Shown: positions 2,505-49,939 of the stretch, one piece after another | How the letters are laid out: every line of letters starts with the position of its first letter | How positions within the stretch are numbered: position 1 is the stretch's first letter | From: Eledone cirrhosa | Lineage: Eukaryota | Length of the DNA: 64,000 nt | Assembly: GCA_964016885.1 (NCBI GenBank) | Contig: OZ024743.1 | Coordinates: 168,454,001-168,518,000, forward strand | Reading direction: 5' to 3' | Notes under the pieces: model-generated | Database searches by the model: none | The model's input: only the letters and a program-made list of their open reading frames with translations | What the model was told of the DNA's origin: nothing | Made by a program: the position numbers and the translations under genes

Positions 2505-3050
2505 TCATTTAGCTTTGGTTGGAATTTATCAATAACATTCTTTTCTTTAATTTTTCTCTTGATTTCACTTGGGCTGTGTAGTTTGTAGAATGGAAATATT
2601 ATAAATATTTTCTGACCACATGTTGCTAGATGGTTACTCAGGGGTATCTGACGGACATTTGGGTGTCTGACTTGCTGTCGGTGCACCCGTGCACGTTCCG
2701 ATAGTGCATTTCCAGTTTGACCGACATATAGTTCTTCACAAGTCGGGCATTTAATGCAGTAAATTAGATTGCTGCTTTTGCAGTTCATATTTGCCTTTGG
2801 GAATATTTTTCCAGCTTTTGTGTTCATATATTGACCAGTATGTATGAATTGACATGTGCCACATTGACTATCATTGCATTTAGATACAGTGAATGATTGG
2901 TCTTTTTTGCCTTTGTTAGTAATTGCTTCACATTTTCGGCTGTCTTTTACTAAGAATCAAAGCTCGGTCTGTGATTAAACCTTTTAATTCATGACTTTGA
3001 GCAATGATCGGTAGGTTTGCTTTGGCTGTGTTGAAGACATTTTTACACAT
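2505..3050 (-). pseudogene. Penelope-like element 3' fragment (GIY-YIG endonuclease)
   Basis: CNDSQCGTC...NLIYCIKCPTCEELYVGQTG...ERARVHRQQ...IDKFQPKLN; same family as 44170-45783. Confidence 0.85.
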
Positions 3051-3875
3051 ACTTCATATTTCTCTCTCGTTTATATATACATACGTATTAGTGTGTGTAT
3101 GCTTGCATCTGTGTATACGTGTTCTTGTGTGTGCGAGAGAGACAAAGAGCGAAAGGGTGAAAGGTGTATCATACCATAAGCTCGAGCTTACCCTCGTCTA
3201 TTGAACACTCGCTTCAAAGTCGCACACAATTCTGAGAAAAAGATCAAAGCAGTCATCTGACATCGGCTTCAAATGTTTCTCAAATGTACGCCTCTTCATC
3301 CCTCCACCTCTCTGTCCTCCCACCACCAACGTTTTCAAGCCACTATCACTGCCATATCAACCCTTTCCCAGCCCACCACCTGTCATACCATTCCCCTACC
3401 ACCTATGTTATACCTCCTACACCAGCTATCATACCATCACCCACTACTCTCATACCACCCCACTCCTCCACTCACACTTATACCATACCAACATTTTCTC
3501 CTTCGGCTACGACGATAACGAATCTCACCTCGGTCAACATTGCCTTTTATCCTTTCGAGTACTATTCCAGTAATTAGATCGATTCTTCCTCATTTCCTCT
3601 CCCCCTCTCTTTCCTTTTCTTTTTAGAAAAAAATCAGCTGTATTCTGACCGAAAGAGGCGATGGACCTTGCCAGAATCCGTAAGCAAATGAGGTTAATCA
3701 GCCCATATACATAAGAGATAAAACTATGTTTGCACCTATATTGAATTCCAGAAATAGCTGTCGGTATTTCCCCCTTGGAAATCGCTAGTTGGCGCCCTGC
3801 CACCACCTTTTAAAATCTACAGCCTTTCAAATGTTTATTCGTAAACATATCGTATATTAATTTATAGACAAAATT

Positions 3876-4044
<169 letters not shown>

Positions 4045-4192
4045 ACGTGTGTTTAGCAATCGATCATTTCAAGGTGCGACATGATACTGATCGTGCCCGA
4101 CTCGAGAATCGATAGCTTATCAGACTTGTGGATTCTTAAGGATAGCGGCGACTATGGTGAAATACCAAACCTAGAACCCCACATCGTATTCT

Positions 4193-4223
<31 letters not shown>

Positions 4224-5869
4224 AAGAACAAAGCTCTTATTATATACACACTGCGCTGTATCGAGTGCTGACCTCAGTACTCTCACCAGTTTTCTTCGGA
4301 CTTACTGAGCGTTTTGCACGTTATATATATATACACACACACATTTCTTCAGCATATATGCGTTCATATGCATCTGCAATTTACCCATGTTACTATAAAT
4401 TGTTCTCCACACCTCGCGTCCAAGCCCCTTCTATAGGTTACCCCATTTGCTGGTTCCTTATAGTTGTCTTCTTGTTGTAGTTGTAGTCGCTGTTGTTTCT
4501 GTTGCTACTGGTGGTCGTGGTATAAATACAGTTGTTGATGATGGTGGTCGAAGTAATTGGTTGCTGTCATTGTTGTTGTTGGTCTTGATGTTATTACCAT
4601 AGATGTTGTTGTTACCGGTGTTGTTGTTAATACTGATTTTGTTGTAGGTCTTGTTGCTAATACAATACTGTTGCTGTTGTAGGTCATCATTATGTTGTAA
4701 CTTTTGGATCTATTGTTGTTGATACTGCGATTGTTGTTTATCATAATTTTATTGTTGTTGTAACAGTCGCGTCTATTGCTGTTCATACTGCTGTTATTGT
4801 TTTTGTTCTTATTGCCGTTGATGTTGTTGTAGGTCTTGCTGCTATTACAGTTGTTGTTCTTGTTTATCATAATGTAACTGTTGGGTTTATTGACAGTGCT
4901 GTTGAAACAGTGATTGTTGTTATTGTTGTTCATCCTAATATTGTTGTTGGTGGTGTAGTTGTAACTGTTGGCTCTATTGCAATGGCAACTGTTACTATAG
5001 ACAGGAATCGGGTTACCAATGAATGACAACATGGAAAATTTATCTTTTATCTCGATAGTCATTTCCTTCCCTGGCCCAGCTGACATGTTGATCGATTGGG
5101 CTTCCGGTTTCTATCGAACTATTTATACGGATGGCTCTAATTTTAGTTTCGACATCTAGCTTACCGCTACCCTCATTCACATGCACAAGTGGACATACAC
5201 ACTCGCATAAACACAGGCATACAGAAACAGACATTTACACAGACAAACATACACGCACACGCACACATGACGACGACACACTCACACACTCACACATACA
5301 CAGCAACGTACACTCACAGTGACATACACACAGGCGTAGACTCATACAAACGCACACACACATGTACAGACACACATGTATAAACGGCTCAATTCAATCA
5401 ACACCCGTTTAATTCTAACTTACACACTCTTCTCACACATTTCGCCAGATAAGCCTACATTAAAAGTACTTTCCCAACAAATCTCCGACACCCCATCACA
5501 CACTCCTCCTCTGACCACCAGAAGTACATATATTTTAAAACTTTCTATAAATGTCTGTCTATCTTTCTAATTAGTAATGGATAGTAATTTATAATTAAAC
5601 GCTAACCACACACGATACTCTGTCTTCGCCCTCCCACTTTCTACCCAATATTCTGATTTTTTTTTTAATGAATATTTCCTTTTCTAAGCAATGAGAATGC
5701 GTGAGTACACATACATTTGTGTGTAAGTAAGTGTGTGTTAGGAAGGGAGGCGGGTCATGGGATAAACCAATGGTTGAATGAGCAAGAATATTCACTACGT
5801 GATGTAGTATTATCATATTTCAAAGAAGCTTAACTAAGAGTCACCCCAAGCTTCACATCTTCATTGGGG

Positions 5870-5997
5870 TTAGCTTTGCCTTTCATTCTTACAGGATCGA
5901 TAAGATAAAGCACCAGTAATGCACTAGCGTCGATTTAATCGACTTCGCCTCCCCTAAAATGTTTGGCCTTGTGCCCATAGTAGAAACCATTATTATA
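5870..5997 (+). mobile_element. SINE 3' fragment (Deu/Nin-like domain family)
   Basis: ctttgcctttcattcttacaggatcgataa...ggccttgtgcccatagtagaaacc matches the window's main SINE. Confidence 0.7.
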
Positions 5998-5999
5998 AA

Positions 6000-8715
6000 T
6001 ATGGCACCGTGAATGTTCTCTTCGCTACACCCGAAGAATCCAGAGGACACTCCAATACGCCACTCCACAGCGAGGAAATAACCATGGTTCTGACGTACTA
6101 TGACCAAACAATTGTGAGGGTACAAGTGACCTAGGTTCTGGACTCAGTAGAAATCGCTTGGCTGATGGCGGCCTTTCTTGCTGACGTCGAAGAAACGACT
6201 ACCATCTTAGACAATATGTGAATCAAACAAGGAAGCTGGTCTGGATCGGAGATGGAGCTGATAATCTAATCCGATCATGAAAATATAGAGGCCCTCTCCG
6301 AAGTGATCGACCAGGACGACGGCAGCCACCTACCAGTGACTGTCGAAGGTAGACGGACAAGTTGTCACGGATGTGGAGATAAAACGCACCTAGAGGCCTT
6401 CTGCCCAAAACTAACCATGACGGAAACGAGCCCCCCTCTTTTCCCTGTGCCGTGTCCCACGACTGGAGTGGCCAAACCATCTGTGGCCGCAGTGGATACA
6501 AAACTACCGGCACAGGCACCAGTACCAGCGATATCAACAACAGAAACACCATCTCCACCACCAACAGCACCACAAAGGCCAGTGGAGAATATGCTCTTCC
6601 CAATATCGCACAATCGGACAACGAGAGGGATGACGGTGAAGGGTGGAAAACTCTCGGAGCGAGAAAAAAACGGAAAGACCTCGCACCTTTCGACCTAAAA
6701 AAAAATGGGGGAAACAAAAAAAAAAAAAAGTGAAGACGTTAATGTCACCCCCACCATCATCAATAGCCCCACTGCCTCAACCACCAACACCATCACCACC
6801 CCCACCATCATCATCATCAACCCCATAGTCACCTCCATCAACACCGCAGCAGACACAAAAAGCACCAGCATGTCAAACACAGATACAATACACAGCGATA
6901 CACACAAACAACAAAACAACTCATATAAATTACATACAGCACAACACCAACATCACAGAAACAACTTACATACTAACCCCAAACATTGCACCTCCCATAC
7001 ACATTAAAATAATCGAAATTTCACAAAAGACTTGAACAATTTTTAAAGAGTCCCCCCGAGGCAATTGGAGACTATCGATGGAAACTATCGAGGAAGAAAC
7101 CCACCACTGCCCGAAGGGATGGATCACCCACCCTCTTTCTAAAAAGCCAAACGTAAAGTCTCCCCCCCCCTCATTTGTTTTCCTCCTATCTTATCCAACA
7201 TGGCTTCCCTGAGGTTATGGGGTCGTCTTGGAAATCAGGGACACCTGCACAGCGATCTCAGGTCACTAAACTTAGTTTTATTGACCATTAGCGAAACCGC
7301 AATCTCCGTGGTACGGGTATTCGCACCCATTTTCGGCGGCGAAGAAGTGTACGCATCTTCAAACCGTTCGGGTGTTCGAGGCGGAGTGGCAGTGTTGTTC
7401 CGTAGAGGTCTTGATCTCGAGATATGGACAATCTTCTTCAATCCAGAAGGTACGTTGGTGATGCTGGACGTGACCAGCGGAGAAGAGCACGCTTTCAGGC
7501 TAGTGGCCGTCTACGCCCCACAAGGGCAGGATGTCCTGACTTCTTCCGCGCCTGGATACCTTTCTTGGAATGTCGCGCTCTTTGGTGTTAGTGGGTAACT
7601 GGAACGGAATCTTGAATGCACGCTGGGACTCTGTGGACGAACAGATAGAACCTTCTCAGACATTTCCAACTGTTTTACAAGTATCGTCTGAAGTAGAGGG
7701 AAATCTAGTTAGAAAATTAGACAAGGTACTTAGAAAAGGCATTGAGACCGACATGCTGGCGGCGAGATTGGCCCTCGCCAACGCAAATCACGAAGGTAGC
7801 GTTGTCAGAGTTATGATGCGTGCTCTCAGACACGAGGGGATGAAAGTCGTTCGATGGGCCAGAGTGGTGGAGGCGCATCGTGGTAACAAAATGCCGATCC
7901 GGTCTTTAGAGGAACACGACTGACGCATATTAGTCGAACCCGAGCAAATCTGCGCGGCTTTTCAGCATCAATTCGTCCAGCTGTTGAGGAGTGGGGGCGG
8001 CACGAGTCGTGGAATGAACATTATCCAAACCTCGACTGCCTGCCGCAGCACTCGGTGCCGGAGGAGTGCTGCGAAAGGCGAATAATCTGAGATACATGAG
8101 GCAATGATGAGTGTAAAATCGCCTGGGTGGATGTTGTGCCCTACGAGCTTTACGTACACATGCCATACTTGCTCGGCAACCTCTTGGCAGACGTCTACTG
8201 CGACTGGCAGCAAAACGGGAGAATTCCCAGTTCTGAAAGCCGAGGAGTGGTGGCGCTTCTGAGAAAGGACCCGAACAAGGGGGACAACATAGATAAATTC
8301 AGGCCCATAACTCGACTAAATGTAGAGTTCAAAATTTTGGCCAAGGTATTAGCAACTAGGTTGGCGCTTGTCGTGGTTGGTTTGGTGGAAGAGGCACAGA
8401 TATTCGCCATTCCAAACAGATCCATCCACGAAAACATTGCACCCCATACAATACATCGTGGAGAGGGTAGCTAAAGAACCTGGCACCTGTGGGGCCCTGA
8501 TCAAATTAGATCAAAAGAAAGTATTCGATAGGGTCAACCATCGATACCTGGCGGCCGGCTTTGGGCCCGTTTTCTGATGCTGGGTCGCTGCAATGCACCG
8601 CAACATTTGCTCTATGGTGGGAGTGAACGCTCACCTTTCGGAACCATTCAACATCATGCGCTCGGTCCGCCAAGGATGTCCCCTCTCATCCCTGTACGTA
8701 TTGACTCTCGTGACA
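6000..8715 (+). mobile_element. Decayed Tx1/L1-type LINE (ORF1 zinc knuckle, APE endonuclease, RT fragments)
   Basis: CHGCGDKTHLEAFC (CCHC); GGVAVLF...FRLVAVYAP...GNWN (APE); FRPITRLNVEFKILAKVLA, LDQKKVFDRV, VRQGCPLS (RT); many frameshifts and deletions. Confidence 0.8.
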
Positions 8716-15027: not shown

Positions 15028-15155
15028 AAAGTTATATTTAAATTGTTGGGTTACAACTAGTAACTATTTATAACTGATATAAAAGCACTCAAGAAGTATT
15101 TGGAGTATATTTACGATATTAAATAAATGGAAACTATATTTATAAAACCATATTT

Positions 15156-15219
15156 ATTTCATTATATATATTTCAGGGATATCATATTAACAATATGTTA
15201 TGCCTTCCTCAGACAAAAT
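15156..15219 (-). ncRNA. Type I hammerhead ribozyme, AUA site
   Basis: Minus: attttgt CTGAGGA AGGCATAACATATT-gtt-AATATGATATCCCT GAAA TATATA TA atgaaat; downstream sequence shared with the 38166 motif. Confidence 0.75.
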
Positions 15220-16589: not shown

Positions 16590-17738
16590 CTACATTTTAA
16601 ATTTAAATTTATATTTAAAAGTTGAGTTCAATCTATGTTTGCAGCAACTGAATAAATTTGTCCGTAGATTAAGGGAATTTTTAGATTTTAGTATAAAGAA
16701 TATCTCCTCCGCGCAGAGGTCACATGTCTCAGAGGATGAATTAAAAGGAGTCCCTCTTGAGACTATATTCCAAGCCGTCGAATATCTAACGTTATCTTGC
16801 CTAAGTTGCCAGAGTACGCCTGATAGTGCTGTTGAAGATTTTTTGCTTGGATCTGTGAAAGAATTCTTGTGGTTATTATAGCGAAGTTTAAATTCCGTCG
16901 ATGTGGAACCCACATAGTTAAAAGAATTAGAGTCCGTTTTAACATTACAGTTGTATATTATATTTTTAACTAAGTAGTTGTTATTTAACGGACATTTAGA
17001 TCTATCTCTACAGTTACATTTGTTAACTTGTATATTATTTATGCTATTATCGCTAGGTTTTAAGTTCCTATTATTTATTCTATTAATATTTTGTGCTAAA
17101 TTTTTGGTGGATGAGTATGTTAATTTTATAGTATGTCTATTGAAAATTGAGTGATACCTATGTGTTCTAGGGAAGCGATTATCAAGAGCTTTAAAAAATA
17201 GTTTAGCGATGTGGGTTTTAATGTTTAGTGAGAAAGGGGGGGCAAACCATATTATGTTCCTAGTTCTATTTCTTTTTTGGCTTTTGGAATTATTGTAATG
17301 CTTTCTATTATAGTTGTTAAGGTTGTGGCCGTAATTAAAATAGTTGTTATTTTGTTTAGTTTGTCTATCATTATCTATGTACATAATCTTATCACTATAT
17401 CCTGCTCTAGCTAACGCTTCATTGTAGTACTGGGCTTTTACGTCGAAAATCTTTCTATTAGACGAGATTCTAGAGATACGTTTTTGAACAGAGTTTACTA
17501 TAGTGTTTTTGACAGATCTGGGGTGGTTAGAGTTAAAGCTGACATAGTTTAAGTTTTCATTCAACTTGTGAAAAGGATAGTGAAGACATGTGTTGAGATT
17601 TAATGTTATATCTAGGAAATTGACTATTCTATGGTTGTTCTCAATTTCTATTTTTAGATTAAAGTAATTAAAAAATTGTGTAATTTGTTTTCTTTTTCTA
17701 TTTAGTTCAGAGTTATTATTATCAATAAGTAAAAGCAT
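16590..17738 (-). mobile_element. Penelope-like element, 5'-truncated: RT thumb plus GIY-YIG ORF
   Basis: Open ORF with VNFLDITLNL, SNHP, WFAPPFS, CNCR...CPL, IIYNC...YVGST...FKLRY, CDLC...LNLR...CKH. Confidence 0.9.
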
Positions 17739-17759
17739 TATTATTATCAATAAGTAAAA

Positions 17760-18152
17760 CCGACTCAGCTCAGGTAACTGACCTTGTGGGCTTATTTTTA
17801 ATCAATTCGCTACATAGGAAAATACCTGGTACTACCGGAGGTTTATATAGAGATGACATGCTTTTACTTATTGATAATAATAACTCTGAACTAAATAGAA
17901 AAAGAAAACAAATTACACAATTTTTTAATTACTTTAATCTAAAAATAGAAATTGAGAACAACCATAGAATAGTCAATTTCCTAGATATAACATTAAATCT
18001 CAACACATGTCTTCACTATCCTTTTCACAAGTTGAATGAAAACTTAAACTATGTCAGCTTTAACTCTAACCACCCCAGATCTGTCAAAAACACTATAGTA
18101 AACTCTGTTCAAAAACGTATCTCTAGAATCTCGTCTAATAGAAAGATTTTCG
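17760..18152 (+). mobile_element. Inverted, overlapping duplicate of the same PLE RT region, including the YRDD motif
   Basis: GLYRDDMLLLIDNNNSELNRK...NRKIFD; ~17857-18152 is the reverse complement of ~17443-17738. Confidence 0.9.
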
Positions 18153-20570: not shown

Positions 20571-21189
20571 TTATTATATATATTATATATAATCCTAACC
20601 GAAAACTTTTCGGATTTTAGTCTTCACATTTATTATTACTATATATATATAGTAATAATAATAAATTTGAAGATTAAAATCCAAAGAGGGCTCGATAAGG
20701 ATAAATATATATCAAATATATAAGAACCGTAGAGCAAATATTTATTAAAATAGCAGATTAAAGGTTAGGCAAACAATCGCTGCTTTCACCCTTAACGGGA
20801 TCTTCTGAAATTAAAAATATCAATTTGTGAACGCAGAAGAAAATATTTCGAAAAACGTTGCAACTGAAGGAAGACAAGAAGACGATACTTTTGTTCATGG
20901 AAACGTTCCCTGGCAAAGAACGGAAAAAAACGAAGATAATACGTCATAATTAGGAGCGGTGAAAACAATTACACGCAAAGACAAAACCCCGTTTATGGTA
21001 TAAATGAAGTCGTAGACTAATATTATATAGGTGGTTCGTGGAGACGTTCTCTGGCAATGAACGGAAAAAACGAACATAATACGTCATTATGTAAAGCGAT
21101 GTGTATTCTAGTATTGAAATCCAGGACTTGGTAGCGGCAATGAACGACAGACAGACTGCCATATATATACTATATATATATATGGCAGG

Positions 21190-22174: not shown

Positions 22175-22862
22175 GTCTCCGAACCTTCATGTATTTATTT
22201 GTAGGTATGTGTGTGCGCTTGTTATATACGTATATATAATTATTTATTTATTTGTACACAAGCATACACACATACACATATTTATATGTGCGTGGTTTTG
22301 TATACCTATGGTAAGGTTTTGCGTATGCTTGTGTATGTACGTATCTGTTTGCGTGTATGTATTTATTTGTTCCTATTACTTCTGTATTGTATTTATTTAC
22401 TTTGTTCTTAACTCTGTAGCGGAGATTCATTCGGTCTCCTAGTTAGAATTTTAGTCTACGACTTCTGCTATACCATTTACGTGGTTTTGTCTTTGCACGC
22501 TATTGTTCTCCACGGTCCACATATGACTTATTATCTTCGTTTTTGCGTTCATTGCCAGAGAACGTCTCTATGCACCACTTAGAGAACATTAGTCTACGAC
22601 CTCTTTTATACCATAAACGTGGTTCTGTCCTTGCACGTAATTGTTTTTCACCGCTCCTATTAATGACGTATTATTCGTTTTTTCCCGTTCTTTGCCAGCG
22701 AACGTCACCATGAACCAAAGTATCGTCTTCCTGTCTTCCTCCGGTTGCAACGTTTTTTGAAATATCCAGTTCTGCGTTTACAGATTGACTTTGTTAGTTT
22801 CAGAAGATCCCGTTAAGGGTGAAAGCAGCGATTCTTTGCTTAAACTTTAATCTGTTATTTTA

Positions 22863-22865
<3 letters not shown>
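22172..22865 (+). mobile_element. Solo PLE tail (pLTR) ending in the CAGAAGA hammerhead-like motif (22796-22846)
   Basis: Colinear with 39506-40245 and with the minus-strand 3' UTR of the PLE at 38250-38820; between (TA)n tracts. Confidence 0.8.
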
Positions 22866-22912
<47 letters not shown>

Positions 22913-23859: not shown

Positions 23860-23942
23860 AATACAACAGAAGCATATAAAATACAATTATATACACACAT
23901 ACATATACATACAGATATATAAACATACATACACATATACAT

Positions 23943-24012
<70 letters not shown>

Positions 24013-24014
<2 letters not shown>

Positions 24015-26848
24015 CGGCGATGAATTAGTTTTGCGAGGTTTTTTATATGAAATCGTGTGTCGAAACAGATATTGTTATATTTGGGGAGGGTCATATTTGC
24101 GTAATATTGCCAGAATTAATAACAGAACACACTCACTGTTTGGTTGGTTTTCGCTTCTCAAGCAGCGCACAAGGGATGGTGAGGTAGTGTGTCTACCCAC
24201 AGATAAGTCTGGTAGGATGTCAATAGATAGCATGCCGAACTACATCGAGGCAATGCAACCCCACACCACCAACACGAGCGAAGTTGCACAACTAACACAC
24301 GATGGGAGAGAAAAAATCCTCAACGCTCACATGATGATGTGGACTGACATCCTAAAGCCAAGCAGACGCACTGCCAACAACTTCCAGGCGTCTAACAATG
24401 GCATACCACCCTTGTATGGGCTCCGCAAAGACCACAAGACAGTCGACGACCCGACAACAGGACCACCAACAAGACCCGTATGCGGAGCTAATATAGCTAG
24501 CAACTACAGGATCTCTTACTTCCTCTCAATGGTTATACGCCCCATAATCAAGATGTCCCCAGATGTATGTGAAAGTACAGAGGACCTCCTCAGCAGAATC
24601 AGTGAGTGCAACAAAAACAGGAGCCTATCCAACTGCATAATAGGCAGCATGGATGTGGTGTCACTGTACCCATCCATTAACATTGATTTTGCTGTGAAAA
24701 GATGTGTGGAGATGATCATTGAGAGTGAGGTGGAGTTCTGCGACGTCGACACAGACGAACTGGGCCTCCTACTTAGACTTACCTACGACACTGACTACCT
24801 AGACAGCCATGACCTTAGATGTTTCTGCCCTAGTAGACCTATAAGTGGTAGACCCCCCACCATAACCTCAATGGCTAAAAAGACTCCCATAGGAAGGTGG
24901 ATTGGGTGGACCAAAGCTATACGGACCCCCCAAAACACTGATCAGGTAAGAAAAATGGTCGCACATGCAATAGGGGCTAGTATCAAAACTACCCTAAAGG
25001 GCCACATATTTAAGTTCAATGAGAAAATCTACACCCAAAATGAGGGAGCAGCCATTGGCGTCAGCATAGCTGGTGATGTTGCCAACCTTTTCATGGTATG
25101 GTGGGAAAGGAGACTTAAAGATCTCCTTAATGAAAGCTCCATAGACCTCATCATGTACTCTCGTTATGTAGACGATATCAATATAGTTATAAGAACACCC
25201 CCACTAGAGAGCACTAACAAGTTTGATTTAGAACGTAGCACGATGGAAAGCATCCAGCAGATAGCTAATTCCATACACCAGAGTATAACTATAACTATAG
25301 ACTTCCCTTCCAAACACCCTAACAATAGACTACCTGTATTAGACACAGAACTCTGGATTAACACTATAGACGAGAGAGCCCAAATTCTCCACTCACACTA
25401 TGCTAAACCCATGGACTCCAAATACCTGATACTCAAAACTCAGCAATGTCCAGTAGTGCTAAGTTTAATATTCTGATCGCAGATTTGGTACGAGTGATGA
25501 AGAATGTGTTCAGCATGTGCGACCCAACAGAAATGGAAGGACACATCCAACACTTCATCAACCGCATGCAGTTCTCTGGCTACAACCAAAGAGACAGAGT
25601 CAGAGTATACGAAGGAGCCATGGAAAAGTATAAGACCCTCATAGAACTGGACATGAAAGGAATTTGCCCACTATACAGGAGAAAATCATGGAATAGCTTA
25701 GATAGGGCTAGACATAAGATAGGGAAGGCCACATCATGGTACGACAACCAGAGATATCAGAGTGTCATGTTTGTGGACGCCACCCCTGGAGGGAAATTAG
25801 CTAACCAGTGTAGAAAGGCCCTGAGAAAGACCCACTTAAAAATAAAGGTGGTAGAAAAGCCAGGAACCACCATAAAATCCCTGATCAGCAAAACCTACCC
25901 TTTTAAGAAAACCCACTGTACCAATAGGAAATGTATCATATGTAAGGTGAACCCCCGGATAAACTGTAAAACTAGAAACGTAGTCTATAGCATAAGATGT
26001 ACAGAGGGTACTTGCAGAAACACGACAACAACATACATAGGTGAGACAGCTCGTAGCATAGGTGAAAGGATAGACCAACACTGGGGGGAACTAAAAGGAC
26101 GAAAAAACGGGTCAGTACTATACGAACATGCTAGACAACAACATGACGGTAACATAGACAACATAGAAATTAGAATAATATCTAAACATAGGAATGACCC
26201 AGCAGATAGGCAAATCAGAGAGGCCAGTGAAATAGAAATTAGAAGACCAAAGCTAAACAGAAAGAATGAGTGGAACAACAACAACACCCAAACAAACAAC
26301 ACTGACCTAAGAGAAGTATAAATAAATAAGTAAATTAAATTAAATAAATAAAATAAGATAAATAAATACATACACAAGCACATAAACACACACTAGTCAC
26401 CCAGCAGACACAACACTATACACACTAGTCACACATCACACATAACACTATACACACACGCAAACGCATGCGCAAAGAAGACAAAATAAAATAAGATAAA
26501 CAAACAAGCAAATAAATAAATAAATATATAGACAGACTGAACAAAAAAAAATGGCGTAGACATACAACACAACAGGAGGAACAATGAATATAACACCACT
26601 GACGATGTTGCAGATGTGCAACGAAAGATTTATGTAAATTATGTAAACTATATATATATGTGTTTGTCTATATTGTATCTGTATTATTTTTGACCGCCGG
26701 TCAGTCAATGGCAACATTGAGGACCGAGTAAGTTAGATCGCAGATATATATATATATAAAAGACAGCGAGAAGCGAAAACCAACCAAACAGTGAGTGTGT
26801 TCTGTTATTAATTCTGGCAATATTACGCAAATATGACCCTCCCCAAAT
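24013..26848 (+). mobile_element. Penelope-like element, 5'-truncated, with inverted terminal segment
   Basis: ~24075-24160 is the reverse complement of ~26766-26850 (gggagggtcatatttgcgtaatattgccagaattaataacagaacacactcactg); inserted in (TA)n. Confidence 0.9.
24160..26321 (+). pseudogene. PLE RT plus GIY-YIG polyprotein with a single frameshift at ~25437
   Basis: PTDKSG, PPLYGLRKDHK, RPVCGA, SMDVVSLYPSI, GAAIG, YSRYVDD, LPVLD; then C-x4-C-x2-C, NVVYSIRC...YIGETARS...R...H...E...LNRK. Adding one A at ctcaaaactca joins the two ORFs. Confidence 0.9.
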
Positions 26849-33346: not shown

Positions 33347-36300
33347 GTCTTCTAGTTTTATAATTTCACAAAGTTTTACCAATAGAGAGAGAGTCGGTTT
33401 CTAACATAGACACAAGACTCTCTCATTGGAATTTACACAACATCAACTAGGTAGATATGTATGTATGCATGCATGTGTAGATATGGATGTCATTGTATGT
33501 GTGGATGTGTATGTTTTGAGTTGTATGTGTGCATGTGTATATGCTTTGTATCTGTACATGTGTATATGCAGTTATTAGATGCAACATTTTTGGAATGTTT
33601 TACATGTTTTTACTGTTCCATTAATGGATTGTACTTGTAATTTCCTAACTAGTTGTGTTCTTTCTGTTCCTGTGAAGCCTAGCTTCTCAAGATTTGTATT
33701 GAGGCAGTTACTAACATATTCCAGTGCCTCAATAGTTACAGGCATAAATCTGAAGGTGTAATCAGGGTGGAGTGTCTGCAGATTTCTCATCAGTTCTGCA
33801 TAAATATTCTCCTTTTCACTAATCTTTGATATTATATTGGCATCTGCTGGGCAGCTAATTTCCACTACTGTGCATGTTTTCTTCTCCCTGTCCCATATCA
33901 TAATATCTGGTCTGTTATGCCTGTATTTTATTGGGGTTTTTACTGGAACATTCCACCAGTACTCTTTCATGGATGTCTTCCACATTGTCGTAGCTTTTAA
34001 TGTTTTTATTATCGGGGCTACCTTTTTTACGAACTGCATTGTACAGTGATTTGGCCACTACATCATGCCTCATAGGTAGATAGTACCGCGATGACATCTC
34101 TGGACAGCTGCTGATGACATAGATGATATCCTCGATGTTAGTTCTGCAGAGTCTGCACTTGTTATCACATCTAGGTGTTTTGCCTGCATCCCTATCTCTT
34201 TTGTGAATCAGGTATTTCGTGCTAATCTTCTGTTCTTGGATTGCAAAAGCGTATCCTTCAAAGTGGGAGTCAATATAGCGGTTGTTGGTCCAAAATAGAC
34301 TACTTTCCTTATCAATATTTCTCTCACTCTGGAGCTTCCTGGCAACATATCCATGCATGATTTTTTGCTGATAGGCATGCAGTTTTTCATCCATGGATTC
34401 ACTGCGATACTGCTGGGTGTGAGTTTTTGATTATAACACAGGGAATATCTCCCAAGGAGTTCCTTCCCAACTCTCATGATCTTATCTGTTTCATGCAGAT
34501 AGACTTGCTCGAGAGACGGGCTCCTACGCTTCGAGGTTCGTAGATGTTGTCGGAGAGATATGATGCGACATTCAAATGTTGTCTGGACTGATGTTAGGCC
34601 TCTGCCTCCCTGCTTACGTTTCAAGTAAAGGCGATCTATGTTACTGTTGATGTGGAAGTTTCCGGTGTTGTTCAGTATTTTTCGAGTTCCAACATCAACT
34701 GCTCGGATTTCGTCTATCGTCCAATTGAGTATTCCAAACGTTGGTGTTAGGACAGGCACAGCAAACACATTGTGAGCCACTGTTTTGTTTTGCGCAGAGA
34801 GTTCCGATGACCAGATCTTTCTTAATCGGGTGTAGTATTCCCTGGTTACGCGTTCTTATTTACATATACCATTATAGGATATGTTCTTATCTATCCCCAG
34901 GTATCTGTAGCAGTCCTCATCAGATATCGGTGAAACAGTTAGACCATTGATGACAATGTTGCTAGATTGGGTTGTTGTTTTTCCCCGCTTTACAGTCATG
35001 TATGAGCATTTATCTTGGCCAAACTCCATTCCTATATCCTTTGAGAACGTTATAACAAGGTTAAGATTTTTCTTCATCCCATGCATGTTCTTGGCATAGA
35101 GTTTCAGATCGTCCACAAAGAAATTATGGGTTAGGTTCGTATTTCTGTCCTCCTGTGAGCCAGTGATGTATCCTTCACATTTCTTGAGCAGAAAAGACAA
35201 GGGGTTTAATGACAAGATGAACAATATCACAGAGAGACTGTCTCCCTGAAATATACCCCTGCAATATTTTATCAGTGAAAATAGAGTCCTCCCTCTCTGT
35301 CTTTAACCTTAGGATAGTAGCCCAAGAAGAAGACAGCCTCTCTATGGCTCTGACAATAATGTCTGGGACTTTAGCAAGTTGGAGGGCCTCTATCATCCAA
35401 GAGTGGGGAACAGAATCGAAAGCTTTTCTGTAGTCCAGCCAGACTGTAGTCATATTCCTCCTAAGTTGTCGCACCTCCGACATCGCAGTTTTGTTGATTA
35501 GGAGTTGTTCAGCACATCCCCAAACCCCTTTCTTTCCAGCTGCTTGTTCACCTGTGATGATGTTGGATTTTTTCACAGTGATCTTGGAGGAATAGCTTCA
35601 GACAGGCTGTATACATCTTATACATCAGGTTCTGACACGCAATGGGTCGGTAGTATTTTGCTAAGTGTGTGTCTTTGATCTTGGGGACCAGTAATGTTTG
35701 TGCTAATGTCAACTTTCTGGTATAAGTGTATCTCCCTTAAGAACTTAGCCACACTTCATCTTGGTTGAAATTTTTCTTTTCACCCCATATTTCTTTCCAA
35801 AAGGAATCTATGTCTTTCTGGGATGGGGCCTCAGTGACACTTATTATTTTGCCCTTCATATCTCTATAGACTGGTGTTTGGTTTCGTCTGAATCTTTTAT
35901 TAAGCACTTTTCTCTCATCTACCTTCTTCAGGTATCGACGTTTTTCGCTAACAGTTCTCAATTCTTGTTTGAGTGTGATCAGCTTATATTGGAGAGTTCT
36001 GGTTCTACTGTTACCAAACATCGTCTCTATTTTATTTTTCACTCTTTGTTGGTGAGGAGTGAAGTTTTTTGTGTTTGTTTGCATGTAAGGAGCATTGTCA
36101 CATATCCTATGTTTTTTCGTAGGTCAGCACTCTTTTTTTCTATTTTAGTTATATATGATGGTATTTTTGGAGGTGTTCTGTTCTTGTTAATATCTCTGCT
36201 ATCACCAAGATAATGCTTCACTGTCGTTGCTAGGGCATATAAACAGGCGTTGATTTGCCAAAATGTTGGGGTTTTTATCCGTCCTAAATATTCATCCCCT

Positions 36301-37229: not shown

Positions 37230-37997
37230 TGGAAGAGAATGAAACGAAATTTCATTTCTCACCCTTAGTACGGCTGATACTTAAATGTAAGTATATATAC
37301 GTACATACATATATGTATACAGACTTACAGTAGTATGTATATATACACATACATGCACACATATATATATGTACGTATGGGATAACCGAACATTTATTAT
37401 AATGTTCGATTTGTTTGTACGGCGTAATTCGGGCTGTTTGTTTACAAACCGAACATTATAATAAATGTTCGGCAAACCCATACGTACATATATACATGTG
37501 TGCATGTATGTATATATATACATACTACTGTACGTCTGTATACATATATGTATGTACGTATACATACTTACATTTAAGTATCAGCCGTACTAAGAGTGAG
37601 AAATGAAATTTCGTTTCATTCTTTTCCATTTATCGTTTTCGGAACGCCCGGCCGACTAAGTCACTCGATATGCAAATTAGGCTGCTCAGCCGTTAATATG
37701 CATAAGGAAAGTATATACTTTCAAACGTTCAATCATCTGACAGGAAGGTATACGATGCTGACGATAGCTAATAATTTTGAAACTAGTACATCGTTCCTTT
37801 GTCAGTGTTGAACAAATAGGCGACAATGGTTCCCGAACACTGTACGGCGTAATTCTGGCTGTTTGTTTACAAACAAACCGAACATTATAATAAATCTTCG
37901 GTAAACCCATACGTACATATATATATGTGTGCATGTATGTATATACATACTACTGTACGTCTGTATAGATATATGTATGTACGTATACATACTTACA
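37230..37997. mobile_element. Retrozyme-like unit: 425-bp partial tandem (37417/37842) preceded by an inverted arm (~37230-37415)
   Basis: gtacggcgtaattc recurs at 425-bp spacing; 37230-37415 is the reverse complement of ~37443-37628; flanked by (TA)n. Confidence 0.8.
37752..37794 (+). ncRNA. Minimal type I hammerhead, GUA site
   Basis: acgatg CTGACGA (weak stem II) GAAA CTAG TA catcgt. Confidence 0.7.
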
Positions 37998-38249: not shown

Positions 38250-40245
38250 TCCATTTATTTAATACCACAGGTATGCAAATACACGCACGTACACAAAAAA
38301 ACCAAAAAAAACCCCGCACGCACATACAGAACCCACGCAACGCCTGTACCCGCACGCATACGAATGCATACACCAAATATACATAAAAATATATATAAGA
38401 AAAAAAATATATATATATATGTGTGTGCGTGTATACATATAATTAAATAAACGTATATAAATAAATAAATACGTATATAACAAGCGCACACTCATACCTA
38501 CATGTAAAACCACACATATGTTCGGAGACGTACGTCAACCAAAACACAAAGTACACAAATTCACACACCCTACATACGTACGAACCCGCATACTCACACA
38601 GACGCAAAACTCACGTATACACTTAACCTAAAGCATATGTACCGGAATATATAATATATACGCCATAACATATACAATGAAATATACGTACGAGAAAGTA
38701 TACGTACCTTCACAAAACATACAGGTAATATATACTTACCTATACAAATAAGTAATGGTATAAACATAATATATACTTAGCTACCACATCAAGACGTAAA
38801 ATATCCGCGTATAGTTCGTACTATCCGTTAGGGTATAATGTGGGGCTGTAATACAGGAAAGTTTTGTGCAATTTATGTTTACAAGCCGAAATTGCCTCAG
38901 ATTTTTTGTTTAAGATGTGGTCTTTAGCGCAGGGTATTTCCAGGGCCTCAGCGGCGCAGAGGTCACATGGCCTTTTATTTCCGTTATACGATCTAGCCCT
39001 AGCTAGGATCTCCCAGTGTAACTTATATCGCGTGTGGTTGTTTTTTAGACTCCAGATATAAGCTGAAAGTGACGTCATATTCCTTCTTAAAGGGTTACGA
39101 AAAGAATGGTATGCATGTAAAGACGCTGCTTGAATCTATTGGCGGTTAACCCTATGTGGGACCTACAGGATGTGGGTGTTTCAACCTTACATTTGTAGAC
39201 AATGTTACTAGAGAGGAATTTCCCGGATAGGGGGGAAGTCAACCCGATTCCTACAATTACAGTTAGTACTAACTACAGGGTTGCACCTATTCCTACGGCT
39301 AGGTAGTTTAGCTAAATTTGAAACTGTGATGTTATGTGCAAGGTTAGGAGTCGTAGAGTAAGAAATTTTAATAGTATTTCTATTAAAAATGTTAATATAT
39401 TTATGTGTAGGGGGAAAATGCTTCATAATAAGGGAAAGAAAGATCTTAGCTAATGGTGTGGCTACCTCCATATTATATGGTGGGTTATACCATGTAATGC
39501 GTCGGTATGTGTGTGCGCTTGTTATATACGTATTTATTTATTTATTTATATACGTTTAGTTAATTATATGTATACACGCACACACACATATATATATATA
39601 TATTTTTTTTTATGTGCGGGTACAGGCGTTGCGTGGGTTCTGGATGTGCGGGTTTTTTGTTTTTGTTTTTGTTTTGTGTACGTGCGTGTATTTGTATTCC
39701 TATAGCGAGTGTTTTCGCGTATGCTTGTGTATGTACGTTTATGGATGCGTGTATGTATTTATTTAATTTCAAATGCCTCTGTATTTTATTTACTTTATTC
39801 TTGACTCTGACGCCGAGAATCATTCGGTTTCCAAGTCTACGACTTCAGTTATACCATTTACGTTGTCTTTGCGTGCAATTGTTCTCCCCGCTCCACATAT
39901 GACGTATTATCTTTGTTTTTTCCGTTCTTTGCCAGAGAACGTCTCTATGAACCACCTAATAGAATATTGGTCTACGACTTCTTTTATACCATGAACATGG
40001 TTTTGTCTTTGCGTGTTGTTTTTCACCGCTCCAAATAATGATGTATTATTTTCATTTTTCCCAGTTCTTTGCCAGGGAACGTTTCCACGAACCAAAGTAT
40101 CGTCTTCCTGTCTTCCTCCGGTTGCAACGTTTTTTTAAATATTCACTTCTGCGTTCACAGATTGACTTTGTTAGTTTCAGAAGATCCCGTTAAGGGTGAA
40201 AGCAGCGATTCTTTGCTTAAACTTTAATCTGTTATTTTAATAAAT
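38250..40245 (-). mobile_element. PLE 3' fragment (GIY-YIG, 38821-39505) with its tail repeated in inverted orientation at 39506-40245
   Basis: TWYNPPY...KHFPPTH...IFNRNTIKISYS...CNCR...IWSLK...CDLC...LNKKSE...CKH; the inverted tail ends in the CAGAAGA motif at 40173-40223. Confidence 0.85.
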
Positions 40246-40259
40246 ATATATATATAGAT

Positions 40260-40509
40260 ATAGTTTTGCGAGATTTTTTGCTATGAAATCGTGTGTCGAA
40301 ACAAATATTGTTATACTTGGGGAGGGTCATATTTGTGTAATATTGCCAGAATTAATAACAGAACACACATTGGTCAGTCAATAGAAACATTGAGGACCGA
40401 ATCAATTAGATTACTGATATAAAAGACACAGAAGCGAAAAGCGAAAACCAACCAAACAGTGAGTGTGTTCTGTTATTAATTCTGGCAATATTACACAAAT
40501 ATGACCCTC

Positions 40510-46948: not shown

Positions 46949-47090
46949 AATTCAAATGTTATCTTTCCATAATGTCACTTTGATGAATAAAAAAAAAAAA
47001 AAACCCTTAAATATATTTCCCGTGCTATTTCCAACTTCACCTTTTCACTGTTTTGTATAGAAGCCTTACTTCCCTTTTCTAATATATATA

Positions 47091-47410
47091 TCTATATATC
47101 TAAAACAGACAATATCTGTGTGACTCCCTAAAACTTGAGAACCAACCAACCGATTGTTTTCAAGCTTTACACATGTAATACTTATGGTCCTGTGAGTGTT
47201 TTGAGCGAAAGATATTTCAAATTTTCAATGCCCTAGGGACGGCAGTAGGCGATTTTGCGATCTCTCTCTATAATTCGTAGTCTTCCTTTTTAGATAGATA
47301 CATAGCTATAACGTCGCGCCCTTATAATATATGTCTGTAGTATGTCTGCTGTCTGCATTACAACATTATGACGCTATATGTGTGTGTGTGTATATCTGTA
47401 TATATATAGG

Positions 47411-47452
<42 letters not shown>

Positions 47453-47563
47453 TATAACGTTTTTCGAAATAATTATTTCTGCGTTCACAGATTGATTTTT
47501 TAATTTCAAAAGATCCCGTTGGGGGTGAAAGCACCGATTCTTTGCTGAAACTTTAATCTGTTA

Positions 47564-47599
<36 letters not shown>

Positions 47600-47857
47600 T
47601 ATATTCGTGTACAGATATTTTTGCATACGCAATAACAAAATATTAAAAAAAGTATTTATTTCGCGATAAAGTATTGATTTTCTTCGCACGGAAAAAAACC
47701 CCTGGTAATCTACGACGAATTTTTTTATATAAGCACAAATTGTAGACACCATCCTGATGCCGAGGTATTCCATACTTCTCTCTACTGTTTCAGAAAGGGG
47801 GGATAAACATGCCAATCTATGTTTAGAATCCCGAGCAACGCCGTGCCATTCTGCTAG
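47091..47857 (+). mobile_element. Complete non-autonomous Helitron carrying a captured PLE-tail segment (~47455-47575)
   Basis: A|TC...cccgagcaacgccgtgccattctgCTAG|T; inserted at an AT dinucleotide. Confidence 0.8.
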
Positions 47858-47980
47858 TATATATATATTATGTATAGAAATTTCGTATTTCTAAAGAAAT
47901 ACGGTTTTAGGAAGCCGTAGCTATGCAAACATCGGGGGGCTAACGCCCTCTGATGGTGTCCAGCAGAAGCAAGGGGGACA

Positions 47981-48024
47981 ACCGTCTATGCATTTCAGGC
48001 TTGGCTGGCCATCGTCAGGACGAT
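47981..48024 (-). ncRNA. Minimal type I hammerhead, AUA site
   Basis: Minus: atcgtc CTGACGA T-GGC-cagccaa-GCC-T GAAA TGCA TA gacggt. Confidence 0.8.
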
Positions 48025-48283
48025 CCCTTCCACCGCTTGCGACTTCTGAACTTGGAAACAGCCGAGAATATATAGTTTTCTCGTCTGTGTAAATGCGGTG
48101 ATTAACCTCATTTGCATATGAAGCTGCATAAGTTGGCTCAACTTATAATAGAAAAGAAATAAGATTTCGCTTCAAGCATTGCTTTATACAATATGTATAG
48201 AAATTTAGTATTTCTAAAGAAATACGGTTTTAGGAAGACGTAGCTACGTCCACTGGTGGTGTCCAGCAGAAGCAAGGGGGACA

Positions 48284-48327
48284 ACCGTCTATGCATTTCA
48301 GGCTTGACTGGCCATTGTCAGGACGAT
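48284..48327 (-). ncRNA. Hammerhead copy with G8-to-A change (probably inactive)
   Basis: Minus: atcgtc CTGACAA TGGC...GCCT GAAA TGCA TA gacggt. Confidence 0.7.
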
Positions 48328-48536
48328 CCCTCGCCGTATTTCTTTAGAAATACGAAATTTCTATATATATTGTATAAAGCTATGCTTGAAGCGAAGTCTT
48401 ATTCCTTTTCTATTATAAGTTGAGCCAACTTTTGCAGCTTCATATGCAAATGAGATTAATCACCGCATTGACACAGACGAGAAAACTATATATTCTCGGC
48501 TGTTTCCAAGTTCAGCAGTCGCAAGCGGTGGGAGGG

Positions 48537-48580
48537 ATCGTCCTGACGATAGCGAGTCAAGCCTGAAATGCATAGACGGT
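48537..48580 (+). ncRNA. Minimal type I hammerhead, intact core, weakened stem II
   Basis: atcgtc CTGACGA TAGC-gagtcaa-GCCT GAAA TGCA TA gacggt. Confidence 0.72.
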
Positions 48581-49152
48581 TGTCCCCCTTACTTCTGCAG
48601 GTCACCACCAGAGGGCGGTGTTTGCATAGCTACGGGTTCCTGAAACCGTATTTCTTTAGAAATACGAAATTTCTATTCATATTGTATAAAGCTAATCTTC
48701 AAGCGAAATCTTATTTCTTTTATATATATATATATATATATACGTATATATATATAATAAAGCCAAGTGATAATTCTCCCTTTCCAAAATTGTTACTGGT
48801 ACGGACAGTTCGGGGAATCTGTCCTTACACTGAGGGAGTCTTTTGACAAGCTGACTATCTAGGTGTTCTTTTACTGCACTTTGGCTGCACACCAGTCGGT
48901 GAAACTGGGCAGTCGACACTACAAAGATAAGTAGGTATTTTTTGTCTATTTATTCTTCATACTTATAATTTTATATATGTATATAATATATATATATATA
49001 TACATACAAATATATGAGTGTATGTATGTGTATTTTACAAAGGGAAACTAGATAGAAAATATATATCATTATTGCTTTACAATATCAATAACATCACCAT
49101 CTTTATTAAACCACGTTCATTTAAACTCTTTTCATTTCTCCTTTCTTCACAG

Positions 49153-49801
49153 GGATGGCAAAGGTTTCAGAGCCAAGGATGCCTTTCCTATGGAAGTAGT
49201 TGATATGATACTTGAGAACAATGAAAATGGAAATTATTGTGTTGACACAGCTGAATTATTTCGACAAGACACCGAAAAGTACTTCCCCTCTGCTAATCAG
49301 GAGGAACTGAACGGTAACTTACGACTAGGCGCTGCCTGTATTCCAAACCCACCCTGTGAAACATTTCAGACAATTAATTGTTCGAGTGAAGCCGTACAAC
49401 GTTGCAGCAATTCTTCAACAGTTTACAGCGTTGCCAATACTGTGTCGAATAACCTTAAGGATAACTGTAACAATATACAAAACATCAGAGACAGTGTGTG
49501 TGTAGCAGTGAGCTCAGCACCTAATCTGAGGCCATCTCTCGGAACGAAGATTAGAGCACCTGTTCAGAAGGTCAGTGAACAGGTCCTTATTAACCCGATT
49601 CCGACTACCAATAGACACGTGTCAGTCGCCACAAACCGTCAGAGTTCAGCGTCTGCTATTTGCTCTAACATTGACTTGGCATTGGACTCAACGGCATTAG
49701 CAGTAACATCTGTTGCCGTAACAGATGCCCAAGGGATCATCGGAACTGAGAATCTAATTAGACAAATTCCTGCAGACGTAAATGCCGTTGGAAATGATCA
49801 G
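49153..49801 (+). CDS. Probable internal coding exon of an unidentified host gene (S/T/N/A/V-rich, likely disordered region)
   Basis: Pyrimidine tract plus cacAG acceptor; 649 nt open (DGKGFRAKDAFPMEVVDMILENN...AVGNDQ); CAG|GTAATT donor exactly where the ORF turns into (ATT)n; no transposon motifs. Confidence 0.7.
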
Positions 49802-49939
49802 GTAATTATTATTATTATTGTTATCAACATCACCACCATCACCACTATCACTAGCACTGCTACTATCATAAACAACATCATCATGTAGCTGTGAACATTT
49901 TTATGTTCCTAAGGTGAGTGCATTATTTATTGTCTTTTG

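What the first reader, a model, noticed from the sequence alone, without database searches (positions are those of the whole stretch)
47870..48721. 323-bp non-LTR retrozyme array in bidirectional (inverted) arrangement
This is the clearest retrozyme-like locus: a non-coding 323-bp monomer with one minimal HHR each (6-bp stem I, ATGCAT stem III), in tandem on the minus strand and then flipped to the plus strand, inside (TA)n. Transcription from either side meets a ribozyme and also forms a long (over 300 bp) imperfect dsRNA. Predicted product of the family: a ~320-nt self-cleaved, possibly circular RNA mobilised by PLE RT.
Basis: partly seen in the sequence, partly recalled or inferred. Interest (0 to 1): 0.75.

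Follow-up and report, generated by a model that had tools for sequence, protein, structure and literature searches.

The report
Decayed two-armed Penelope-type ribozyme insertion
This is one ageing copy of a protein-free 323-base repeat that carries a hammerhead ribozyme motif and occurs over a thousand times in this genome; its back-to-back layout is the family's usual form, likely left by a Penelope-type jumping-gene enzyme copying the RNA from both strands of cut DNA, and this copy is predicted to be unable to release its own RNA circle.

Summary
The structure is real: two head-to-head arms of a 323-nt non-coding unit with three type I hammerhead (HHR) motifs. It is not special to this locus. 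The HHR pattern has 1,123 exact genome hits (reversed control 0). Of 83 position-ordered loci, 53 are head-to-head; 114 of 134 arm ends fall at two fixed sites about 40 nt apart, mostly beside (TA)n; 31 of 35 pairs with both ends defined use one site each. This is the published Penelope-like element (PLE) footprint, and an ORF-bearing PLE here shows it too. The two arms of a locus agree at 94% of diagnostic sites, against 53% between loci. No partner PLE was identified; expression is untested. This scan already reported the same footprint for other retrozyme families in this genome. Verdict: new member of a known kind.

The parts
47862..48332 (-). Left arm, about 1.5 units read leftwards (unit positions 165-323, then 1-323); 3' end at family site A, no tail
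   Evidence: site statistics
47870..48192 (-). Outer full 323-nt unit, 7.1% from the family majority
47981..48024 (-). HHR1: type I hammerhead, intact core, U-U at the base of stem II; predicted cut between 47987 and 47986
   Evidence: folds in the arm alone (P stem I 0.95-0.99) but not in read-through RNA
48193..48332 (-). Inner 5'-truncated unit with a deletion of about 20 nt
   Evidence: (spacing 303)
48284..48327 (-). HHR2: core broken (CTGACAA, G8 to A)
48332..48334 (.). Head-to-head junction of the two 5'-truncated arms, one unassigned base at 48333
48334..48725 (+). Right arm, about 1.25 units (289-323, 1-323 with an internal deletion, about 1-43); 3' end at family site B
48537..48580 (+). 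HHR3: intact core, damaged stem II; predicted cut between 48574 and 48575
48681..48722 (+). Tail of about 40 nt between sites A and B, present on this arm only
   Evidence: tail concept from PMC8557442 and PMC11167929
48721..48756 (.). (TA)n at the right end, the likely target
   Evidence: 101 of 134 family 3' ends have (TA)4 or more within about 30 nt, against 176 of 1620 control windows
47860..47869 (.). Short TA remnant at the left end, next to a different dispersed repeat

Best explanation
The locus is one decayed insertion of a dispersed, protein-free, hammerhead-bearing 323-nt repeat (a non-LTR retrozyme), and its two back-to-back arms were likely made in one event by a Penelope-like element's enzyme acting in trans. 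Steps: (1, inferred) a source copy is transcribed into multimeric RNA, which the HHR may cut and a host ligase may close into a circle, as shown for coral, mussel and axolotl retrozymes. (2, inferred from Poseidon biochemistry in PMC11167929 and from target bias shown here) a PLE RT/GIY-YIG protein nicks both strands of a (TA)n tract. (3, pattern shown, chemistry inferred) each nick primes reverse transcription inside the RNA at one of two fixed sites about 40 nt apart, one strand taking site A and the other site B. (4, shown) the two cDNAs come from the same sequence subtype, copy overlapping parts of the unit, run through the HHR cut site without stopping and end at scattered points. (5, inferred) their ends are joined head to head. 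(6, shown) the copy has since drifted 7-9% from the family majority and lost one HHR core; it is predicted to form a long hairpin that silences the remaining HHRs if read through. It is most likely an inert product, not a source of circles.
For: 1,123 exact HHR-pattern hits, control 0; about 1,500 loci estimated. All 100 listed hits were fetched and fall in 83 loci: 53 head-to-head, 28 single-arm, 2 complex. Of 134 arms in the 81 simple loci, 61 end at site A, 53 at site B, 20 elsewhere. Among 53 head-to-head loci: A+B 31, A+A 3, B+B 1, 18 with one end elsewhere; 31 of 35 against 50% expected, p = 1.6e-6. (TA)n at 101 of 134 3' ends against 176 of 1620 controls. Opposite arms agree at 349 of 373 comparisons over 11 common polymorphic sites, tandem units at 116 of 124, different loci at 35,182 of 66,465. 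5' ends near the HHR cut: 4 of 134, about 9 expected if uniform. 15 of 134 arms span the cut site twice. ORF-bearing PLE locus L177 is a 3,266-nt head-to-head palindrome (99.7%) with a 45-nt tail on one arm only and 126 nt from cut to site A, against 117 nt here. The inverted 5' copy, the tail at one end and (TA)n targets are described for PLEs (PMC8557442, passages); nicking and extension of both strands and two RT start sites were shown in vitro (PMC11167929, parts 1-2 of 4). Site A lies in the loop of a predicted hairpin.
Against: No autonomous partner found: a profile of the unit hit none of 80 PLE ORF loci (50, 30), and local alignment to 17 PLE 3' regions gave z 2.0 or less. No RNA evidence for the family was obtained. 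Long tandem source arrays were not seen: only 6 of 81 loci have two core-intact HHRs on one strand and the longest arm is 746 nt. Arm concordance shows the same subtype, not the same RNA molecule; only 52 of 906 rare-allele sites are shared between arms (2,210 of 168,610 between loci), and such pairs are not independent. Arm lengths are uncorrelated (rho -0.04). The sample is the first 235 Mb of one contig, chosen for an intact HHR. Site A coincides with my unit boundary, so its position is blurred by up to about 16 nt. 22 of 53 junctions have 1-36 unassigned bases rather than overlap. Folding results are equilibrium predictions.
Confidence: 0.8

Rival explanations
1. The copies are solo, 5'-truncated pLTR ends of an autonomous PLE that I did not find, copied from its linear tandem transcript; there is no independent small RNA or circle.
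For: Same footprint as ORF-bearing PLEs; Xenopus retrozymes resemble pLTRs (bioRxiv 10.64898/2026.07.22.740005, parts 1-3 of 5); HHR cleavage is not needed for Poseidon insertion in vitro; few long arrays.
Against: Arms that pass unit position 1 continue into another copy of the unit, up to 746 nt, not into ORF sequence. 0 of 80 PLE ORF loci carry the unit. The PLE protein hits near family loci did not adjoin the 5' ends in a shared way on reading (not tested statistically).
Confidence: 0.1
2. The inversion arose at the DNA level after insertion (fold-back replication or repair), or from two independent insertions into one (TA)n tract.
For: (TA)n is a hotspot for several elements here; arms of one locus differ by a median 8%.
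Against: A DNA fold-back would copy the same 3' end, but 31 of 35 pairs have different fixed ends. Independent insertions would not give 53 head-to-head loci with only 2 complex ones of 83, nor 94% subtype concordance.
Confidence: 0.04
3. One reading: the locus acts as a two-way self-cleaving or dsRNA-producing element, for example a hairpin in a host intron that is edited or diced.
For: Predicted hairpin of 379 pairs with perfect runs up to 45 bp. A single-copy, exon-like open frame lies about 430 nt downstream on the plus strand, so read-through is plausible.
Against: The layout is the family norm; the arms are decaying with separate deletions; intact HHRs are predicted buried; the host gene is unverified.
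Confidence: 0.06

Closest known systems
Metazoan non-LTR retrozymes (Cervera and de la Pena 2020, PMC7229834; abstract, Results parts 1-2 of 3 and Discussion read; Li, Clavereau and Pollet 2026, bioRxiv 10.64898/2026.07.22.740005; parts 1-3 of 5 read)
   Same: Non-coding unit within 150-450 bp, GC 43%, one canonical-type type I HHR per unit with a palindromic helix III, head-to-tail continuation, over a thousand copies, PLEs in the same genome; the U-U at the base of helix II in this subtype matches axolotl HHR_Amex2.
   Different: Mostly dispersed 1-2-unit arms rather than arrays; most loci are head-to-head with two fixed 3' ends, which the parts I read do not describe for retrozymes; expression, cleavage and circles untested.
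Endonuclease-bearing Penelope-like elements (Craig et al. 2021, PMC8557442, passages; Frangieh et al. 2024, PMC11167929, parts 1-2 of 4)
   Same: Inverted 5'-truncated copy, tail of about 40 nt at one end only, AT-rich or (TA)n targets, HHR upstream of two start sites; L177 in this genome has nearly the same spacing.
   Different: No ORF; no sequence similarity to the PLE 3' regions tested; HHR of canonical rather than min-HHR type (PMC4209133, passages).
LINE-1 twin priming (PMC2837659, search listing only; mechanism otherwise recalled)
   Same: Two primers on the two target strands give an inverted, head-to-head insertion.
   Different: Recalled: L1 pieces are consecutive parts of one RNA and end in poly(A). 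Here both arms start at fixed sites about 40 nt apart and overlap by 60 nt or more in 44 of the 55 two-armed loci; no poly(A) tail.

Membership tests
Metazoan non-LTR retrozyme | Non-coding unit of about 150-450 bp, GC under 50% | tested here: met
   323 nt, GC 0.43; no ORF of 120 aa or more
Metazoan non-LTR retrozyme | One type I HHR per unit with conserved core and stems | tested here: met
   Family: 112 of 115 motifs have the same helix III and cut triplet; stem II AGGC/GCCT 73, TGGC/GCCT 12, compensated AGAC/GTCT 4 of 115 (sample chosen by the pattern). Locus: 2 of 3 cores intact.
Metazoan non-LTR retrozyme | Head-to-tail tandem units | tested here: met
   45 of 134 arms exceed one unit; 3 exceed two; short tandems only
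Metazoan non-LTR retrozyme | 'Active' copy: two consecutive units with complete HHRs (Li et al. criterion) | tested here: not met
   Not met at this locus; met by 6 of 81 sampled loci
Metazoan non-LTR retrozyme | Multicopy and dispersed, PLEs in the same genome | tested here: met
Metazoan non-LTR retrozyme | Self-cleavage in vitro | not testable with these tools
   Only folding predictions
Metazoan non-LTR retrozyme | Expression as linear and circular unit-length RNA | not testable with these tools
   No suitable RNA data could be examined
Non-autonomous PLE derivative | Inverted 5'-truncated arm adjacent to the insertion | tested here: met
   53 of 83 loci
Non-autonomous PLE derivative | Two 3' ends about 30-45 nt apart, tail often at one end only | tested here: met
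   114 of 134 ends at A or B; 31 of 35 pairs A+B
Non-autonomous PLE derivative | AT-rich or (TA)n target | tested here: met
   101 of 134 against 176 of 1620
Non-autonomous PLE derivative | Sequence similarity to the pLTR of an autonomous PLE | tested here: inconclusive
   0 of 80 PLE ORF loci, a small part of the genome's PLEs (10,596 GIY-YIG candidates)
Autonomous PLE | RT plus GIY-YIG ORF | tested here: not met
   No ORF at the locus

The most novel reading that the evidence does not exclude
The family is a genome-wide record of a PLE enzyme dimer priming from both strands of a (TA)n nick and rolling round a circular retrozyme RNA: one subunit starts at site A, the other at site B, both copy the same subtype, pass the ribozyme cut site freely and often exceed one unit. 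That would be genomic evidence for the proposed but unshown route by which PLEs mobilise retrozyme circles, without needing pLTR sequence homology.
Probability: 0.45. Interest if true: 0.55.

Novelty: new member of a known kind. Interest (0 to 1): 0.3.

Why it matters
Which enzyme moves animal retrozymes, and whether the template is a circle, is proposed but not shown (PMC7229834 Discussion; bioRxiv 10.64898/2026.07.22.740005). This family gives a countable footprint that points to PLEs and names two exact start sites to test in the published in vitro PLE assay. The locus itself is ordinary and probably dead, and this scan has reported the same footprint in younger, cleaner families of this genome, which are better test objects.

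Tried and rejected
Rfam at gathering threshold: 0 matches in the window. Expression: no RNA holder listed. The three runs listed (kind not on record, one sample) were laid as contigs; no listed piece spans the locus or was shown to bridge its junction, so they say nothing either way. Assembly fold-back artefact: rejected, since the arms differ by 6-9% with separate deletions and 53 other loci share the layout. Cleaved linear monomer as template: rejected, since 5' ends do not pile at the cut (4 of 134) and 119 of 134 arms span it. Partner search: 30 GIY-YIG loci and 20 long-ORF loci, 17 3' regions by local alignment, 30 loci of two young PLE families: no match. HHR core conservation (98.5% against 93.8%) was not used as evidence because loci were chosen by that motif. 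Arm-length correlation: none. Nearby exon-like frame: no Pfam hit, no usable Atlas hit. Look-up of earlier findings by this sequence: none. Literature searches listed no title or abstract opening that describes two-armed, tail-at-one-end retrozymes; subscription journals are not covered, and I did not see the supplements of PMC7229834 or the 2026 preprint, which may show such structures.

Full report
1. What is in the sequence. Positions 47862-48725 hold two arms of a 323-nt unit pointing away from each other. With the unit numbered on the window's outer minus-strand copy (47870-48192), the left arm reads unit 165-323 then 1-323 and ends at 47862-47870; the right arm starts at 48334 and reads 289-323, 1-323 and about 1-43, ending in (TA)n at 48721-48756. 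No ORF of 120 aa or more overlaps it. Rfam gave nothing at gathering threshold. My descriptor scan found type I HHRs at 48024-47981 (-) and 48537-48580 (+). A third copy at 48327-48284 (-) has CTGACAA in place of CTGACGA. G8 pairs with C3 and its mutation abolished cleavage in a PLE HHR (PMC11167929), so this copy is likely dead. The motif has a 6-bp helix I, a 4-position helix II (U-U at its base here, A-U in most of the family) and a 1-2-bp palindromic helix III, the 'canonical metazoan type I' form that works better as a dimer (PMC4209133, passages).

2. The family. A DNA search gave 2,823 candidates, 40 scored. An exact HHR pattern gave 1,123 hits, the reversed pattern 0. I fetched all 100 listed hits, the first by position on contig C1, as 86 stretches, dropped 3 duplicates and mapped the unit on 83 loci. 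53 are head-to-head, 28 single-armed, 2 complex. Two-HHR loci are over-sampled; correcting for that gives about 59% two-armed and about 1,500 loci with an HHR-spanning segment. Copies lie a median 5.8% from the column majority; the window's three segments lie at 7.1, 9.1 and 8.7%. The inverted layout is thus the norm, and this copy is older than average.

3. The footprint. Of 134 arms in the 81 simple loci, 61 end at unit 313-323 (site A), 53 at unit 30-55 (site B, about 40 nt on) and 20 elsewhere; 101 have (TA)4 or more within about 30 nt, against 176 of 1,620 control windows. Site A coincides with my unit boundary, so it is blurred by up to about 16 nt; the printed flanks show most arms passing straight into microsatellite. 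In the 53 head-to-head loci the ends pair as A+B 31, A+A 3, B+B 1, and 18 have one end elsewhere; 31 of 35 against an expected 50% gives p = 1.6e-6. The window is an A+B locus. 5' ends are scattered, with 4 of 134 near the HHR cut; 104 arms span the cut once, 15 twice, 15 not at all. Junctions show 1-19 nt overlap in 27, none in 4 and 1-36 unassigned bases in 22 of 53 (BLAST edges, approximate). Opposite arms agree at 349 of 373 comparisons over 11 common polymorphic sites, tandem units at 116 of 124, different loci at 53%; the window's two full units agree at all 11. Median distance is 0.082 within and 0.109 between loci. This shows one subtype per locus, not one molecule.

4. Comparison with PLEs. 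Craig et al. describe an inverted 5'-truncated copy, a 30-40-bp tail often at one end only, and (TA)n targets (PMC8557442, passages). Frangieh et al. show that a Poseidon protein nicks and extends both strands at AT-rich DNA, starts reverse transcription at two internal sites that define the tail, is predicted to be a dimer, and does not need HHR cleavage (PMC11167929, parts 1-2 of 4). In this genome locus L177, with RT-thumb and GIY-YIG coding arms, is a 3,266-nt palindrome at 99.7% identity with a 45-nt tail on one arm and 126 nt from HHR cut to site A; the retrozyme has 117 nt. Head-to-head pairs of hits are also visible in the lists for two young PLE families (not counted). Site A lies in the loop of a predicted hairpin. 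No partner was found by sequence: 0 of 80 PLE ORF loci matched a profile of the unit, and 17 3' regions gave z of 2.0 or less. Clade names such as Neptune-like or Hydra-like for these ORFs are recalled from motifs and were not tested with a tree.

5. Folding the whole locus as RNA gives a hairpin of 379 pairs (-620 kcal/mol; longest perfect runs 45, 40 and 36 bp). On either strand the core-intact HHR has P(stem I) 0.00 and 0.95 long-range pairing; only the G8-broken HHR stays folded. The left arm alone folds HHR1 (P 0.95-0.99), though an 81-nt local fragment does not (0.17); HHR3's stem II is almost unformed in any context. The cut-to-cut unit on the minus arm would be 303 nt and needs the broken HHR. 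So the locus is predicted to give no monomer or circle. As circles, the 303- and 323-nt units fold with HHR stems I and II formed, z -4.0 and -3.1 against 40 shuffles of base pairs-of-two, in keeping with retrozyme circles (PMC7229834, Results parts 1-2 of 3 and Discussion). Only 6 of 81 loci have two core-intact HHRs on one strand; source copies must be a minority. A single-copy open frame with splice-site-like edges at about 49153-49802 suggests the locus may lie in a plus-strand intron; this is unverified.

6. Mechanism and odds. Best reading (0.8): a non-autonomous retrozyme RNA is copied in trans by a PLE enzyme that primes on both strands of a (TA)n target at sites A and B, and the cDNAs are joined head to head; this copy has since decayed. 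Whether the template is a circle or an uncleaved tandem transcript cannot be told here: both explain passage through the cut site and arms longer than one unit. The scarcity of long arrays leans to a circle, the lack of RNA data leaves it open (0.45). Rivals: solo pLTRs of an unfound PLE (0.10), a functional bidirectional or dsRNA locus (0.06), DNA-level inversion or double insertion (0.04).

7. Novelty. Retrozymes and their proposed PLE link are published (PMC7229834; bioRxiv 10.64898/2026.07.22.740005, parts 1-3 of 5), as is the PLE footprint. Five searches listed nothing that describes this footprint for retrozymes, but I read few full texts and no supplements. I reached the reading before consulting earlier scan notes; those report the same footprint for 310-, 318-, 430-450- and 500-nt families in this genome, and none matched this sequence. 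They are unchecked AI notes, not support. Verdict: a new family of a known kind, an ordinary and probably inert copy; interest 0.3.

Noticed in passing
window 3600-3875: Decayed copy of a second, related repeat family (482 candidates, 40 scored; profile hits up to E 1.5e-22). Its HHR position has different stems and often a T...A in place of C3/G8 in the core (read by eye); some loci are head-to-head too.
   Followed up: partly
window about 47090-47858: Dispersed repeat abutting the left arm, with a GC hairpin and CTAG end; resembles a non-autonomous Helitron (label recalled). Other copies in the window at about 2000-2500, 20738-20859, 22749-22898 and 40126-40262.
   Followed up: partly
window about 49153-49802 (+): Single-copy 216-codon open frame with acceptor- and donor-like edges, probably a host exon; no Pfam or Atlas hit.
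   Followed up: partly
window 23923-26321 (+); G000:C28:42004468-42061485: Young PLE family with open frames up to about 1,218 aa at 99% identity; on C28 a tandem array with about 4.15-kb period in both orientations.
   Followed up: no
window 16590-17801 (-) and 15138-15218 (-): Young PLE with a C-terminal GIY-YIG-like region (Hydra-like by recall), frames near 745 aa elsewhere; HHR about 1.35 kb past the stop, and again two alternative 3' ends.
   Followed up: partly
L177 (G000:C1:97884500-97893500) 2760-6025; L175 1489-5237: ORF-bearing PLE insertions that are near-perfect head-to-head palindromes of 3.3 and 3.7 kb (99.7% and 97.2%).
   Followed up: yes
window 37752-37794 (+): HHR of another family (ACTAGT helix III); the same motif recurs at 511-nt spacing in L178.
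   Followed up: no
G000:C12:17016430-17475708 (L004-L008, L010, L012, L015): Eight near-identical copies of this family with shared flanks about 55-95 kb apart: a large segmental tandem duplication.
   Followed up: no
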